A stretch of 34,224 nt of DNA from Escherichia coli (GCA_025544715.1 GCA_025544715.1_4109.4), one strand, 5' to 3'; counted from the stretch's first letter, positions 15,389-18,169 are shown. Made by a program: numbers and translations. Notes: a model not told the origin generated them from the letters alone.

Positions 15389-15760
15389 TTATGACATACG
15401 CTTATTATGAATGGAATTATGAATGGATTTTAAATAATTATATAATTTTATCAATCCACTACCAGTAGCTACAAACAGTAGTGCTGTTGGTATCATACAT
15501 CCAAACATGGTTATTAATTCATGTATTTCCATACCATCACTATTTGGTCCCACATCAAATATAACAACCAAAACAACACCTAAAATGCTTAGACAATAAT
15601 ATCCCATAAAGACCATAAAAGTGATATATCCGGCACTTGATTTAATATTACATAACATATTATATACTGGATTAATACAGAAGAAGTATAATAACCATAC
15701 CAGTGTTCCAGTACTGAACATAATAATTGAAATAATGGAAAATATCTCACGGTAACTCAT
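15389..15760 (-). CDS. paralogous small membrane protein (tandem array), 123 aa
   Basis: ATG with SD GAGGA; several hydrophobic segments. Confidence 0.65.
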   Translation of the reverse strand: MSYREIFSIISIIMFSTGTLVWLLYFFCINPVYNMLCNIKSSAGYITFMVFMGYYCLSILGVVLVVIFDVGPNSDGMEIHELITMFGCMIPTALLFVATGSGLIKLYNYLKSIHNSIHNKRMS

Positions 15761-15761
15761 A

Positions 15762-16124
15762 TTATTTCCTCATACCCAAACGTTGGTGGATTTCAGAGAT
15801 CTTTATATACAATAGTACCACAAGGTGCAGTACTAAACAACATATAATTACGGCTAATACCAATGAACATATCATAAGACCAAAGGTTATTGTATTCAAA
15901 GAGGATGTGAACAGTCCAATTATTAATACAATAAAACCAAAATTGAATACTGTACCCAACACAGTATATGCTGGACTATATCTCTTTTGGATTACATCAT
16001 ATATATTTGATAATGGTCGCTTATGGAAGTACTTCCCAATGCACACGAATGCATTCAGTGAGAAGATAAATGTATACGCCATTACTAGTAATTGACCAAC
16101 GAAAGATAATTCTATCCCGTTCAT
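15762..16124 (-). CDS. paralogous small membrane protein (tandem array), 120 aa (start moved to internal ATG)
   Basis: ATG 16122-16124 with SD GAGGT sits just after upstream stop 16126; track start would overlap upstream gene by 62 nt. Confidence 0.6.
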   Translation of the reverse strand: MNGIELSFVGQLLVMAYTFIFSLNAFVCIGKYFHKRPLSNIYDVIQKRYSPAYTVLGTVFNFGFIVLIIGLFTSSLNTITFGLMICSLVLAVIICCLVLHLVVLLYIKISEIHQRLGMRK

Positions 16125-16125
16125 A

Positions 16126-16494
16126 CTAACCTCGTTTACGTTTTTTAATTGTACTGTGCATCTTTTCGAAATAGGGAACCAAAACATATTGAACAGTTTG
16201 CCAGATAACCATTAGATTATGCACTGCACCACCAAGGATACCAAACACTAGAACAATAATTGCCATAATAGGATCACCGTCTACCATACCCCATTTAAAG
16301 ATATGTAAAATCCAAGCAATGACTAGACAAAATAAACTAAGCCAATACGTAATGAAAAATCCGGCTTGTAATTCATAATCATCAGCAATTTCATCGTATA
16401 CCGTTTCTAAAAATGATACACAAAAGAATTTACCAATTATAACCACAGTACTAATAAACAGCATAGCAGTTAAGATAATAAGAGCAATTTCCAT
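16126..16494 (-). CDS. paralogous small membrane protein (tandem array), 122 aa
   Basis: ATG; hydrophobic; basic C-terminus KKRKRG. Confidence 0.65.
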   Translation of the reverse strand: MEIALIILTAMLFISTVVIIGKFFCVSFLETVYDEIADDYELQAGFFITYWLSLFCLVIAWILHIFKWGMVDGDPIMAIIVLVFGILGGAVHNLMVIWQTVQYVLVPYFEKMHSTIKKRKRG

Positions 16495-16808
16495 TACATC
16501 CCTCGTTTACGCTTTTGATTGCGTCTAAATTCTGTTAGTCCACGGCTAATCGGCGGCAGCAGACTACATAAAAAAGTAACAGTTGTTGGTAGTAACATCA
16601 AGTCAATCATTGCAGTGTTATCTGGTGGATCAAAAACCAAAAAATACACACAAGAAACACTAATAATGGTTGAACCGATAAAAGGAATACAAAATTCTTT
16701 TATCTGTTTTTCAACATAATCAAACATCTTGAGTACAAATAAAAATCCAACCCAACACATAATGAAATAGAATGAATACAACGTGTAAATCAATGTTACT
16801 ATATCCAT
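16494..16808 (-). CDS. paralogous small membrane protein (tandem array), 104 aa
   Basis: ATG overlapping upstream stop; hydrophobic; basic C-terminus. Confidence 0.65.
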   Translation of the reverse strand: MDIVTLIYTLYSFYFIMCWVGFLFVLKMFDYVEKQIKEFCIPFIGSTIISVSCVYFLVFDPPDNTAMIDLMLLPTTVTFLCSLLPPISRGLTEFRRNQKRKRGM

Positions 16809-17143
16809 TAGTACCTCGCATCAGGAACTTTAGCACGTAACTTATGAACGACTGGGAACAACAACAAACTTACATATGCAATAGTTGAACCCCAATAGAA
16901 TACTAATACAATTGGTTCACCATTAGAACGGAAACCTCTACTAATCATTGAGTAGTGAATAATAGGCATAATCATCGCCATACCAAACCATGCGTGTAAT
17001 TTTAATTGCAGCATGTTATCAGCGATGAATACTGAAATTGGTCGTTTAAAGAACCACATCAGAAAGTAGAATCCAGCACTAATAATATAGTACATGGTAC
17101 TAACTTTCATATACCACGGCAGTAAATCAATAAAGTACTCCAT
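16808..17143 (-). CDS. paralogous small membrane protein (tandem array), about 111 aa
   Basis: Second ATG preferred by SD GGAGGA spacing; C-term RAKVPDARY. Confidence 0.65.
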   Translation of the reverse strand: MEYFIDLLPWYMKVSTMYYIISAGFYFLMWFFKRPISVFIADNMLQLKLHAWFGMAMIMPIIHYSMISRGFRSNGEPIVLVFYWGSTIAYVSLLLFPVVHKLRAKVPDARY

Positions 17144-17490
17144 CATTCCTCCGGTATCTTGTTTCGAAGGTCAATCATAACACAACAAAGTTTAATGATC
17201 AAGTGAAAAAATACACATATCATACCAATTGTTCCATAAACGACTGAAAAAGCAGGTAGTGCTTTTCCGGCTAGAACAGCCACAATACATGCAATCAATG
17301 TTGATGCAAACAACGATTGATTAATGAAAGAATTCATAAAATCTTTACCATTACGCTTATAGAATTGTCGTTTAAAATACCATCCTAGAAACATAACCAC
17401 CCAAAATGTTACATAACCTGTTAGAATAATCCCTGCAAGTGAATGTGCAACTGGACTACTCCTTAAAAACTCAATATAAGCTTCAAACAT
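17143..17490 (-). CDS. paralogous small membrane protein (tandem array), 115 aa
   Basis: ATG; C-term DLRNKIPEE. Confidence 0.65.
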   Translation of the reverse strand: MFEAYIEFLRSSPVAHSLAGIILTGYVTFWVVMFLGWYFKRQFYKRNGKDFMNSFINQSLFASTLIACIVAVLAGKALPAFSVVYGTIGMICVFFHLIIKLCCVMIDLRNKIPEE

Positions 17491-17828
17491 TAGAAGTCTC
17501 CGCGAATTTTATCTCTACCATGAATAATGAGATGGATTAAGTATACACCTAACCAAATGAACAACCCAAAGAATACAATATATTGCGAGATTGAGTTCAA
17601 GTGAGGATTAGCACAATAAATTAAGTGTGCCATAAGACCAACAATTGCAAACAAACCTTGAACAAGTGTGTAAAGAACTAGTGATGAATTCCTCACTGGA
17701 TACAGTTTAAAAACAATTTTCTTTTTAAAATACCACAGTACTACAACCAGTGCATGATAAAAGAAAAAACCAAAAAGATAAATCAAAGTAATACTAAGCA
17801 TTGTATCTGACTTAAAGAATGTTAACAT
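17490..17828 (-). CDS. paralogous small membrane protein (tandem array), 112 aa
   Basis: N-term MLTFFKSDTMLSITLIYLF; near-duplicate of 17828..18169. Confidence 0.7.
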   Translation of the reverse strand: MLTFFKSDTMLSITLIYLFGFFFYHALVVVLWYFKKKIVFKLYPVRNSSLVLYTLVQGLFAIVGLMAHLIYCANPHLNSISQYIVFFGLFIWLGVYLIHLIIHGRDKIRGDF

Positions 17829-18169
17829 TAGAATTCCCCTTTAATTCTATCACGAGCTTTAATAATAAAGTACATGCTACACACCAACAACCACACGATT
17901 AGACCTGAAAAAACAAGATATTGTGTAATGTGTGGTGTATTATCAATTTGTAACATGTAAATCGCATATATCATCACACCAAATAAAATAAACCCACCTT
18001 GGATAATACTATATAAAACTAAGACTACATTATCATACGAATACAATTTAAAAACAATTTTCCTTTTAAAATACCACAGACTAATTACAATTGAATGATA
18101 ACACAAAAATACAAACATGTAAATTAGCGTGATACCAAGCATTGTATCTGAATTAAAAAACTCAAGCAT
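17828..18169 (-). CDS. paralogous small membrane protein (tandem array), 113 aa
   Basis: N-term MLEFFNSDTMLGITLIYMF; C-term KARDRIKGEF; SD GGAGA. Confidence 0.7.
   Translation of the reverse strand: MLEFFNSDTMLGITLIYMFVFLCYHSIVISLWYFKRKIVFKLYSYDNVVLVLYSIIQGGFILFGVMIYAIYMLQIDNTPHITQYLVFSGLIVWLLVCSMYFIIKARDRIKGEF

What the first reader, a model, noticed from the sequence alone, without database searches (positions are those of the whole stretch)
15389..18169. Tandem array of eight paralogous ~113-aa membrane proteins
Eight consecutive minus-strand genes encode hydrophobic proteins of 104-123 aa, several ending in a related basic motif (KARDRIKGEF, HGRDKIRGDF, DLRNKIPEE, RAKVPDARY, KKRKRG). The two at 17490..18169 are near-duplicates. 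They are tightly coupled (1-nt overlaps) and have their own promoter at 18199-18227. Expansion of a small membrane-protein family is unusual and could relate to superinfection exclusion, lysis timing or envelope modification; this is speculation.
Basis: partly seen in the sequence, partly recalled or inferred. Interest (0 to 1): 0.6.

Follow-up and report, generated by a model that had tools for sequence, protein, structure and literature searches.

The report
Jumbo-phage family of small membrane proteins

Summary
Eight translationally coupled minus-strand genes (15389-18169) each encode a 104-123-aa protein with three predicted TM helices, N-out/C-in. The window is from a 121Q/PBECO4-like E. 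coli jumbo phage (Asteriusvirus). Only g1 and g2 are obviously alike (53% identity, not near-duplicates). Profile-profile comparison with architecture-preserving controls still unites all eight, plus a second array of three genes at 24550-25585, into one family (97.7% probability, E 2e-12, score 68 against a control maximum of 26). Shared features are an invariant Phe after TM1 and a basic [R/H]-x-[K/R]-[I/L] motif after TM3. Seven lineages keep broadly the same order across at least two phage genera. Copy number ranges from about 4 to 10 per array, and the array is a deeply diverged cassette next to a 97%-conserved ATPase gene. An exhaustive search of 1.84 billion proteins found 31 relatives; every one whose source was traced comes from a jumbo phage. 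There is no Pfam or NCBIfam match, no informative fold match, and no similarity to lambda S or T4 Imm. Promoter type, operon context and a published virion proteome point to early, non-structural expression. My best guess, at low confidence, is that these are diversifying early membrane factors acting on the host or on competing phages. Lysis timing is disfavoured.

The parts
17828..18169 (-). g1, 113 aa, lineage A. An extra copy that is absent from PBECO4, slurp01, phAPEC6 and WPEC5.
   Evidence: ORF; 3 TM; phrog_19454; 53% identical to g2; one copy versus two among relatives; the single WPEC5 gene is a g1/g2 chimera.
17490..17828 (-). g2, 112 aa, lineage A.
   Evidence: Orthologues: A4_1, Tur5_1, Muen_3.
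17143..17490 (-). g3, 115 aa, lineage B.
   Evidence: phrog_19046, with weak hits to phrog_16874 (which is CBB_544) and phrog_19454. Orthologues include Muen_1 and Muen_2.
16808..17146 (-). g4, 111-112 aa, lineage C.
   Evidence: phrog_27396; AlphaFold2 pLDDT 82.4 with helices 2-32, 36-43, 46-68 and 77-105; B-C hhalign score 62-64.
16494..16808 (-). g5, 104 aa, lineage D.
   Evidence: phrog_33258; B-D hhalign score 38-39. Duplicated in Turkey5 and JNE01.
16126..16494 (-). g6, 122 aa, lineage E.
   Evidence: phrog_26405; E-G 37.5-39.6 and E-F 36-37; as a single sequence against the {A,B,C,D,H} profile it scores 39.9 at 93% probability.
15762..16124 (-). g7, 120 aa, lineage F. No Muenster orthologue was detected.
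   Evidence: Start as annotated in 121Q gp231 and G17; 3 TM; no PHROG hit; orthologues A4_6 and Tur5_7.
15389..15760 (-). g8, 123 aa, lineage G.
   Evidence: phrog_27618; AlphaFold2 pLDDT 82.3 with the same helix layout as g4; as a single sequence against the {A,B,C,D,H} profile it scores 48.8 at 96% probability.
18199..18227 (-). Promoter-like site directly upstream of g1: TTGACA, a 17-nt spacer containing a GTAC-rich palindrome, then TACTAT.
   Evidence: Pattern scan; sequence; conserved in G17, WPEC5, Turkey5 and JNE01; absent in A4 and Muenster.
18235..19005 (-). P-loop/AAA ATPase, 256 aa, a homologue of T4 NrdC.10. First gene of the transcription unit that holds array 1. A syntenic neighbour, probably not a functional partner.
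   Evidence: phrog_1250 and weak AAA Pfam hits; tblastn hit to T4 nrdC.10 at 39% identity, and about 1,300 phage records in all; precedes the array in Muenster, A4, Turkey5, L012 and L014 but not in CBB.
19034..19066 (-). Fused terminator and sigma-70 promoter element that heads the ATPase plus array-1 unit.
   Evidence: Five copies in the window with none expected by chance; alignment with the Muenster copies.
15360..15383 (.). 10-bp-stem hairpin just downstream of g8. Its T-run lies on the plus strand.
   Evidence: G17 annotators called it a terminator.
25247..25585 (-). h1, 112 aa, array 2 (lineage H), same family.
   Evidence: Family HMM E 1e-5; 3 TM; FFRY and WRSNIPEK motifs; phrog_19285; H-A 31.9, H-B 29.7 and H-F 28.9 against controls of at most 14.9.
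24896..25237 (-). h2, 113 aa, array 2.
   Evidence: Start as in 121Q gp208.
24550..24894 (-). h3, 114 aa, array 2.
   Evidence: Family HMM E 1.9e-9. Start as in 121Q gp209.
27015..27047 (-). Terminator-promoter element heading the operon that runs from the T7-like kinase gene (26345-27019) through array 2.
   Evidence: Kinase is phrog_15752, annotated 'protein kinase; inhibitor of host transcription'.

Best explanation
What the data show: the eight genes, plus three more at 24550-25585, belong to one ancient multigene family. The proteins are ~100-127 aa with three predicted membrane passes (N-out, C-in), and the family is confined to RaK2-like jumbo phages.

All members share the same scaffold:
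- TM1 ends in an aromatic residue followed by an invariant Phe.
- A short cytoplasmic helix follows.
- TM3 runs into a cytoplasmic helix that carries a basic [R/H]-x-[K/R]-[I/L] motif.
- The TM2-loop-TM3 hairpin is the most variable part.

What I infer about expression: both arrays are transcribed early by host sigma-70 RNA polymerase. Array 1 follows a consensus terminator-promoter element and also has an internal conserved promoter. Array 2 sits in the operon led by a T7-like host-shutoff kinase. Each array is translated as a coupled unit, and the proteins insert into the host inner membrane rather than the virion.

Proposed function (inference, low confidence): the members act largely as individual, exchangeable modules that change the infected cell's inner membrane to the phage's benefit. 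They might block DNA entry by superinfecting phages, or neutralise membrane-embedded host factors or defence effectors. The conserved cytoplasmic-face scaffold would provide insertion or a shared partner, and the variable hairpin would provide target specificity. An arms race of that kind would explain why deeply diverged allelic cassettes sit next to nearly identical DNA, and why members are duplicated, lost and recombined.
For: One family:
- The enriched profile {A,B,C,D,H} against {E,F,G} gives 97.7% probability, E 2.2e-12 and score 68.2 over 110 collinear columns. Twenty-five architecture-preserving column permutations average 13.7 with a maximum of 26.4, and the reversed control scores 19.1.
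- Lineage pairs: B-C 63.6, E-G 39.6, B-D 38.4, E-F 36.1, A-B 30.7. The maximum over 126 controls is 26.4.
- The Phe is invariant in 37 of 37 sequences and the R/H position in 37 of 37. The Phe stays invariant when array 2 is added.
- g4 and g8 give the same helix layout in AlphaFold2, each with pLDDT 82.

Old lineages in a fixed place: one-to-one orthologues are broadly collinear in A4, Turkey5, WPEC5 and Muenster (A and B are swapped in Muenster). The same is seen in uncultured genomes L012 (9 members) and L014 (4 members). Reciprocal weak PHROG links connect the family to the CBB array.

Restricted distribution: tblastn hits the same 45 phage records for two different queries. Only 31 of 1.84 billion representative proteins match, all 56-127 aa. 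Those whose source was traced are phage-annotated or lie on 320-360-kb contigs or their fragments.

Hypervariable cassette: nucleotide identity to A4 is 94.5% up to the ATPase stop codon (18233) and then collapses. Array proteins are 26-67% identical with saturated dS, while the ATPase is 97% identical. Against G17 the identity is mosaic inside the array: g6-g8 100%, g1 and g3 85-86%.

Turnover: lineage A is duplicated here, B in Muenster and D in Turkey5. g1 is missing in many relatives, and the single copy is a g1/g2 chimera.

Real genes: dN/dS is 0.08-0.63.

Early and non-structural: there are five consensus terminator-promoter elements, all on the minus strand. No TATAAATA motif lies near either array. 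The leader of the array-2 operon is a kinase. The phAPEC6 orthologues gp012c-gp017c are not among the 62 virion proteins, whereas the neighbouring gp003-gp010 are (PMC7247149).
Against: - No experiment or homology links any member to a function.
- There is no similarity to T4 Imm and no Pfam or NCBIfam hit.
- Retention of the same seven lineages in a broadly conserved order across genera, together with tight translational coupling, fits a fixed multi-subunit complex at least as well as it fits independent modules.
- dN/dS is below 1 throughout, so positive selection is not demonstrated. The deep divergence could reflect cassette exchange without any arms race.
- Early timing is inferred from promoter patterns only.
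- Small hydrophobic proteins are easily missed by virion mass spectrometry.
- Topology is predicted, not measured.
Confidence: 0.4

Rival explanations
1. The paralogues are distinct subunits of one hetero-oligomeric inner-membrane complex built early in infection, for example a channel, a scaffold or a membrane-remodelling assembly. Each lineage would fill a fixed position, and the conserved cytoplasmic motifs would mediate assembly or bind a shared partner.
For: Seven lineages have one-to-one orthologues in a broadly conserved order across Asteriusvirus, Alcyoneusvirus and uncultured relatives. The 1-nt stop/start overlaps with embedded SD sequences suggest stoichiometric co-translation. Whole-cassette divergence in A4 and Turkey5 is what co-adapted subunits would be expected to show. 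All members share conserved motifs on the cytoplasmic face.
Against: Array size ranges from about 4 (L014, CBB) to 9-10 (L012). Lineage F was not detected in Muenster, and g1 is dispensable in many close relatives. Recombination breakpoints fall inside the array: against G17, g6-g8 are 100% identical but g1 and g3 only 85%. Some genomes carry apparently frameshifted or shortened members. No multimer modelling could be run.
Confidence: 0.25
2. The array works together with the upstream NrdC.10-like P-loop ATPase. The small proteins would tether or regulate that ATPase at the membrane through their conserved cytoplasmic motifs.
For: The ATPase gene directly precedes the array in five diverged genome types: this window, Muenster, A4/Turkey5, L012 and L014. 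In A4 and Muenster no promoter gap separates them. In Turkey5 the ATPase and the array have diverged together, at about 66% nucleotide identity between 87-93% flanks.
Against: About 1,300 phage records carry the ATPase, T4 among them, yet the array family is found in only 45 records. In CBB the array is not next to an ATPase homologue. In A4 the ATPase is 97% identical while the array has been replaced. Array 2 has no such neighbour. Overall gene order is conserved in these phages anyway.
Confidence: 0.1
3. The proteins are holins or antiholins that control lysis timing. Like class I holins they are ~100-120 aa, with three TM helices, N-out/C-in topology and a charged C-terminal tail.
For: Gross architecture and size match class I holins. 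No holin has been assigned for this phage group in the papers checked. The group's endolysin is predicted to be SAR-type, and such enzymes need a membrane-depolarising partner (PMC5259590).
Against: No holin Pfam family is hit even at E<=1. lambda S scores at background against both family profiles, 9.6 and 14.0. The promoters are early-type sigma-70 consensus sites, and no T4-type late motif is nearby. Array 2 shares an operon with an early host-shutoff kinase. The predicted endolysin, 121Q gp532, is far from gp224-232. Eleven copies with deep allelic diversity are not expected of a lysis clock.
Confidence: 0.07
4. The eight are not truly homologous. Their resemblance would be convergence of unrelated small membrane ORFs that accumulate in a hyperplastic region, with the shared C-terminal residues imposed by the overlapping ribosome-binding sites.
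For: Pairwise BLAST is marginal for most pairs. PHROGs keeps them apart. The last 3-4 codons of each gene do encode the SD of the next gene. Foldseek did not recover the paralogues from the viral structure library.
Against: Profile scores far exceed controls that preserve TM layout and composition. The invariant Phe and the R/H-x-K-I motif lie 8-10 codons or more from the next start codon, outside the SD. Alignments are full-length and collinear. g4 and g8 have the same predicted helix layout.
Confidence: 0.04

Closest known systems
T4 Imm, the superinfection-immunity membrane protein of T-even phages
   Same: A small protein of the host inner membrane, encoded by an early gene of a large virulent myovirus and not part of the virion. 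It alters the membrane so that DNA from a superinfecting phage fails to enter (T4 record annotation). This is the closest functional analogy for an early small membrane protein.
   Different: Imm is 83 aa with two predicted TM segments and a single copy. It shows no detectable similarity to the family (hhalign scores 11.5 and 11.7). It lacks the Phe and R/H-x-K-I motifs and is not part of a multigene array.
Class I holins, prototype lambda S105/S107
   Same: Size of about 105 aa, three TM helices (established for lambda S; my hydropathy scan called only two), N-out/C-in topology and a charged cytoplasmic C-terminus.
   Different: No sequence or profile similarity. The arrays are not in a lysis cassette and lack late promoters. 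There is no Met-Lys-Met dual start. The family has eleven diverged copies, whereas lambda has a single gene.
Paralogous gene families in hyperplastic regions of jumbo and T4-like phages, such as the adjacent RCC1/Kelch-like beta-propeller arrays
   Same: Tandem paralogue expansion, copy-number change and mosaic recombination within otherwise conserved genomes. The CBB paper reports 22 paralogous ORFs and 50 putative membrane proteins (PMC5259590).
   Different: The RCC1-like neighbours are large virion proteins (PMC7247149). This family is small, membrane-embedded, non-virion and probably early. Nothing in the papers checked describes it as a family.
PHROGs 19454, 19046, 27396, 33258, 26405, 27618, 19285, 13405, 16874 and 19792
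   Same: These are the database families that already hold the individual members, either with 'unknown function' or labelled 'membrane protein'.
   Different: They are treated as unrelated, and g7 is unassigned. This analysis merges them into one superfamily. The link to 13405, 16874 and 19792 (CBB and the Muen_8 type) is weaker than the rest.

Membership tests
RaK2-like phage three-TM small-protein family (defined here) | Length about 100-127 aa with three TM helices, predicted N-out/C-in | tested here: met
   All eight, plus h1-h3. AlphaFold2 models of g4 and g8. TMHMM notes in the Muenster record give 3 TMDs N-out/C-in for five of its eight array genes. Topology is a prediction only.
RaK2-like phage three-TM small-protein family (defined here) | Aromatic residue plus invariant Phe at the cytoplasmic end of TM1, and a basic [R/H]-x-[K/R]-[I/L] motif after TM3 | tested here: met
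   Phe in 37 of 37 sequences and R/H in 37 of 37. The Phe stays invariant in alignments that include array 2 and database hits.
RaK2-like phage three-TM small-protein family (defined here) | Profile-level homology among lineages that exceeds architecture-preserving controls | tested here: met
   score 68.2 against a control maximum of 26.4. The link to the Muen_8/CBB_545 lineage is weak (score 32 over 24 columns).
Class I holin (lambda S type) | Three TM helices, N-out/C-in, charged C-terminal tail, about 100 aa | tested here: met
   (predicted).
Class I holin (lambda S type) | Sequence or profile membership of a holin family | tested here: not met
   No holin Pfam hit at E<=1 for the eight or at E<=0.1 for h1-h3. 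lambda S against the family profiles scores 9.6 and 14.0, which is background.
Class I holin (lambda S type) | Late expression, usually within or co-regulated with a lysis cassette | tested here: not met
   Early-type sigma-70 terminator-promoter elements head both units. No TATAAATA motif is nearby. The predicted endolysin is 121Q gp532, whereas the array is gp224-232 (PMC5259590). Timing is inferred from sequence, not measured.
Class I holin (lambda S type) | Triggered lethal hole formation that releases endolysin | not testable with these tools
   Needs expression and energy-poison triggering assays.
T4 Imm-type superinfection immunity protein | Homology to Imm | tested here: not met
   hhalign scores of 11.5 and 11.7 against the two family profiles; family HMM E 0.1 in a three-sequence search.
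T4 Imm-type superinfection immunity protein | Early, small, non-virion inner-membrane protein of a virulent myovirus | tested here: met
   The early and non-virion status is inferred.
T4 Imm-type superinfection immunity protein | Blocks DNA entry of superinfecting phage | not testable with these tools
   Needs challenge assays.
NrdC.10-like P-loop ATPase (neighbouring gene 18235-19005) | Full-length homology to T4 NrdC.10 / phrog_1250, with a Walker A motif | tested here: met
   phrog_1250 at E 2e-103. tblastn to T4 nrdC.10 gives 39% identity over 81% of the query. The sequence contains GAPGVGKT.

The most novel reading that the evidence does not exclude
The arrays could be a combinatorial 'membrane immunity island'. 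In this reading each three-TM paralogue uses its variable TM2-loop-TM3 hairpin to bind and neutralise a different membrane-embedded target. The targets could be host defence effectors or the inner-membrane entry routes of competing phages. Whole cassettes or single members would be swapped among jumbo phages as the targets change. That would make this a new class of phage counter-defence or exclusion protein that works inside the lipid bilayer. An equally novel alternative that the evidence does not exclude is that the members build a phage-specific hetero-oligomeric inner-membrane machine.
Probability: 0.2. Interest if true: 0.75.

Novelty: new variant of a known kind. Interest (0 to 1): 0.45.

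Why it matters
Jumbo phages carry hundreds of genes of unknown function. This work folds at least ten 'unrelated' database families and one unassigned protein into a single superfamily with a recognisable signature, a fixed genomic position and a clear evolutionary pattern: old lineages, cassette replacement and copy-number change.

That pattern is typical of genes at the interface between a phage and its host or its competitors. It gives a concrete target of 11 genes for deletion and expression studies in E. coli phages that can be grown in the laboratory, such as 121Q, PBECO4, phAPEC6 and G17. If the proteins prove to be exclusion or anti-defence factors acting within the membrane, they would extend a class now represented mainly by single genes such as T4 imm. 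If they form a complex, it would be a new phage-built membrane assembly. If neither holds, the finding remains a useful annotation correction of modest importance.

Tried and rejected
- Pfam, NCBIfam and PHROGs scans of all members gave no functional family. The only hits were sub-threshold noise such as SUR7, Wzy, DUF350 and TRAP-gamma.
- Two word-indexed searches of 5.8 billion proteins returned only close versions from the same phage group.
- The exhaustive profile search of 1.84 billion representatives found no relative traceable outside jumbo phages.
- CBB_542 has the same 256-aa length as the ATPase, and I considered it the CBB counterpart. It shows no similarity.
- T4 Imm.1, a 125-aa protein annotated as a predicted membrane protein, was considered as a relative. 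It has only an N-terminal signal or lipoprotein-like segment and no similarity.
- No Muen_8/CBB_545-type gene is present in this window.
- Literature searches on this phage group and on NrdC.10 found no statement about these genes, no transcriptome for an Asteriusvirus and no assigned holin.
- My first hhalign run hung on writing to stdout and was repeated with file output.

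
Full report
Origin of the window. A 4.1-kb stretch spanning the finding is 95-97% identical to E. coli jumbo phages of the genus Asteriusvirus, including 121Q, PBECO4, phAPEC6, G17 and SHEFM2K. In those records the genes under the finding are all annotated 'hypothetical protein'.

The observation. I call them g1 to g8 in the order of transcription, from 18169 down to 15389. g7 should be read from the ATG at 16124, giving 120 aa as in 121Q gp231. The longest possible ORF, 141 aa, overlaps g6. Junctions between genes are 1-nt overlaps, one 4-nt overlap, or 1-nt gaps. 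Each start codon is preceded by a GGAG/GAGG Shine-Dalgarno sequence that lies inside the last three or four codons of the preceding gene.

Hydropathy analysis gives three TM segments per protein. Basic residues cluster in the loop after TM1 and in the C-terminal tail, so the predicted topology is N-out/C-in. The annotators of Klebsiella phage Muenster reached the same call with TMHMM for five of the eight array genes there; two others came out as three TMDs N-in/C-out and one as two TMDs. AlphaFold2 models of g4 and g8 are confident, with pLDDT 82 and pTM 0.64. Both show the same layout: TM1, a short cytoplasmic helix, TM2, a periplasmic loop, and TM3 continuing into a cytoplasmic helix.

'Near-duplicates' is too strong for g1 and g2. 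They share 53-57% amino-acid identity, dS is saturated, and only the first ~120 nt are 79% identical.

Are the eight really paralogues? Not by simple tests. Pairwise BLAST supports only g1 with g2, and PHROGs spreads the eight over six families and leaves g7 unassigned.

I collected the syntenic arrays from G17, WPEC5, A4, Turkey5, JNE01 and Klebsiella phage Muenster. The proteins sort into seven orthologous lineages: A (g1, g2), B (g3), C (g4), D (g5), E (g6), F (g7) and G (g8). The order is collinear across the E. coli phages, but in Muenster A and B are swapped and F was not detected.

Profile-profile comparison links the lineages well above two kinds of control. The first control reverses the sequences and never scores above 17.0. 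The second shuffles alignment columns within each topological segment, which keeps the TM and loop layout and the composition; over 126 trials it averages 12.8 with a maximum of 26.4. Real scores are B-C 63.6, E-G 39.6, B-D 38.4, E-F 36.1 and A-B 30.7.

I then enriched the profiles with database and metagenomic members. The two superclusters {A,B,C,D,H} and {E,F,G} align over 110 collinear columns with 97.7% probability, E 2.2e-12 and score 68.2. The segment-permuted controls reach at most 26.4, and the reversed control scores 19.1.

A family-wide alignment shows a Phe just after TM1 that is invariant in 37 of 37 sequences and is usually preceded by an aromatic residue. After TM3 there is a basic R/H position in 37 of 37 sequences, within an [R/H]-x-[K/R]-[I/L] motif. 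The extreme C-terminal residues (GEF, GDF, PEE, RGM) overlap the next gene's SD, so part of that similarity may be imposed at the nucleotide level. The R/H motif lies further upstream and is not affected.

The family is larger than reported. A family HMM run over every ORF in the window found three more tandem minus-strand genes: h1 (25247-25585), h2 (24896-25237) and h3 (24550-24894). They are 112-114 aa with three TM segments each, and they carry the same two motifs (FFKY...LFNRxYP, and LRxNxPxx). As a group they score 31.9, 29.7 and 28.9 against lineages A, B and F, while their controls reach at most 14.9. 121Q annotates the same three genes as gp207-209.

Distribution. tblastn with two different Muenster members at E<=1 hit exactly the same 45 records, 36 from Asteriusvirus and 9 from Alcyoneusvirus. 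Two word-indexed searches of 5.8 billion proteins returned only close versions. The exhaustive profile search of 1.84 billion representatives returned 31 proteins, all 56-127 aa. Those whose source was traced are phage-annotated or lie on contigs of roughly 320-360 kb or fragments of them.

Two of these uncultured genomes keep the same synteny: a T7-like kinase, then further along the ATPase, the array, and RCC1/Kelch genes on the opposite strand. They have nine members (L012) and four members (L014). Pectobacterium phage CBB (Mimasvirus) has three to four similar proteins at the corresponding site. These are tied to the family by reciprocal weak hits: g3 hits phrog_16874, which is CBB_544, at 2e-5, and CBB_543 hits lineage A's phrog_19454 at 0.005. 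CBB_545 and the orphan Muen_8 share phrog_19792.

Evolutionary behaviour. All members are under purifying selection, with dN/dS between 0.08 and 0.63. The neighbouring ATPase is far more constrained, at 0.04-0.05.

The array is a hypervariable cassette. Against phage A4, nucleotide identity is 94.5% up to position 18233, the ATPase stop codon, and collapses from the first array gene onward. Array proteins are 26-67% identical with saturated dS, while the ATPase is 97% identical. Against Turkey5 the flanks are 87-93% identical, while the ATPase and array are ~66% identical or undetectable. Identity to G17 is mosaic within the array: g6-g8 are 100% identical but g1 and g3 only 85-86%.

Duplications are lineage-specific: A in this clade, B in Muenster and D in Turkey5/JNE01. 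Many close relatives lack g1. Their single gene begins with ~33 nt identical to g1 and continues as g2. Together with the 120-nt direct repeat at the 5' ends of g1 and g2, this indicates unequal crossing-over. Within lineages the N-terminus, TM1, loop 1 and the C-tail are the best-conserved parts (42-51% mean pairwise identity), and TM2-loop2-TM3 the least (28-35%).

Expression context. A 33-nt element, GGGTTGACTTCGGTCAGCCCTTTTTGCTATAAT, occurs five times in the window. All copies are on the minus strand, and none is expected by chance. It combines a hairpin and T-run terminator with a consensus sigma-70 promoter whose -35 hexamer lies in the stem, and it is conserved in Klebsiella phage Muenster.

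One copy (19034-19066) heads the unit that runs from the ATPase gene through g1-g8. Another (27015-27047) heads the unit that runs from a T7 gp0.7-like kinase gene through h1-h3. It is conserved in G17, WPEC5, Turkey5 and JNE01 but absent in A4 and Muenster. The T4-type late motif TATAAATA does not occur near either array.

In phAPEC6 the array genes are gp012c-gp017c. They are not among the 62 virion proteins detected by mass spectrometry, whereas the adjacent RCC1-like gp003-gp010 are (PMC7247149). I therefore infer early, non-structural expression. This has not been measured.

The upstream P-loop ATPase is a homologue of T4 NrdC.10 and occurs in about 1,300 phage records that lack the array. 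I take the adjacency to be synteny rather than a functional link.

Interpretation. The description of structure and evolution is well supported. The function is not known. The combination of features most resembles the host-interaction and exclusion genes found in the hyperplastic regions of large virulent phages. These features are early and non-virion expression, small inner-membrane proteins, a conserved cytoplasmic-face scaffold with a variable hairpin, deep allelic cassettes next to conserved DNA, and frequent duplication, loss and intra-array recombination. T4 imm is the nearest functional analogy, although it is not a homologue.

The main rival is a hetero-oligomeric membrane complex. 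The conserved lineage set, the gene order and the translational coupling favour it. The four-to-ten range in array size and the breakpoints inside the array count against it. I put about 0.4 on the modular host- or competitor-interaction model, 0.25 on a complex, 0.1 on an ATPase-linked role, 0.07 on lysis control and 0.04 on non-homology.

Novelty and score. The genes are already in the databases as hypothetical proteins. Recognising them as one ancient, jumbo-phage-specific, hypervariable superfamily is new, as far as the searched libraries and literature show. In kind, however, this is a variant of something familiar: paralogous small early membrane genes in the plastic regions of large phages. 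Interest is 0.45.

Noticed in passing
window 19034-19066, 20824-20856, 22106-22138, 27015-27047, 32861-32893 (all minus strand): A 33-nt fused terminator and sigma-70 promoter element, GGGTTGACTTCGGTCAGCCCTTTTTGCTATAAT, with the -35 hexamer inside the hairpin stem. It punctuates the minus-strand gene block into short operons and is conserved in Klebsiella phage Muenster.
   Followed up: partly
window 24550-25585 (minus strand): A second tandem array of three family members (h1-h3, equal to 121Q gp207-209, phrog_19285). It lies in the operon led by a T7 gp0.7-like protein kinase gene at 26345-27019.
   Followed up: yes
window 18235-19005 (minus strand): The 256-aa P-loop ATPase is a homologue of T4 NrdC.10 (phrog_1250). 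It is present in about 1,300 phage records, and many T4-like genomes label it 'thioredoxin', apparently a mis-annotation carried over from the nrdC gene name.
   Followed up: partly
window 25874-26287 (minus strand): A gene for a 137-aa protein with an N-terminal signal-peptide-like segment is present here and in SHEFM2K. It falls in the part of this region (~16%) not covered in 121Q, G17, Sharanji and slurp01, so it looks like a presence/absence difference inside the kinase operon.
   Followed up: partly
window 19429-20568 (minus strand); L001 7431-8894: The slot upstream of the ATPase holds different homing-endonuclease-type genes in different relatives. This window has a 379-aa HNH/DUF4379 ORF, and 121Q has a 1,464-nt endonuclease, gp221.
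   Followed up: no
L001 4495-4810 (121Q gp228/gp229); L009 5339-5539; protein P0018: Some relatives carry apparently damaged family members. The g5 orthologue is split into two ORFs in 121Q, g3 is shortened in Salmonella phage SD-2_S15, and the g7 orthologue is frameshifted in SD-6_S16. These could be real decay or sequencing errors.
   Followed up: no
window 15360-15383: The hairpin after g8 has its T-run on the plus strand. It would therefore terminate convergent transcription coming from the RCC1-like genes rather than the array's own transcript. On the minus strand it is followed directly by the SD and start codon of the 220-aa gene.
   Followed up: partly
window 18199-18227 (minus strand): The spacer of the array's promoter-like site contains a GTAC-rich palindrome (AGTACTAC...GTAGTACT) that is conserved in diverged relatives. 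It could be an operator-like site.
   Followed up: partly
window 5396-14704 (plus strand): A run of ~400-aa paralogous RCC1/beta-propeller genes faces the array. Their phAPEC6 orthologues (gp003-gp010) are virion proteins annotated as 'DNA condensation protein'.
   Followed up: no
window 22796-23047, 21329-21523, 33436-33813 (minus strand): Further small ORFs with 2-3 predicted TM segments lie in the same early block and do not match the family profile.
   Followed up: no
L003 7702-8046 (Muen_8); L010 23783-24133 (CBB_545); L012 10037-10360; L014 7805-8143: A further three-TM lineage (phrog_19792, motif D-[YW]-x-x-G-x-DKL) closes the array in Alcyoneusvirus, Mimasvirus and two uncultured genomes. 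It is absent from this window and only weakly linked to the family.
   Followed up: partly
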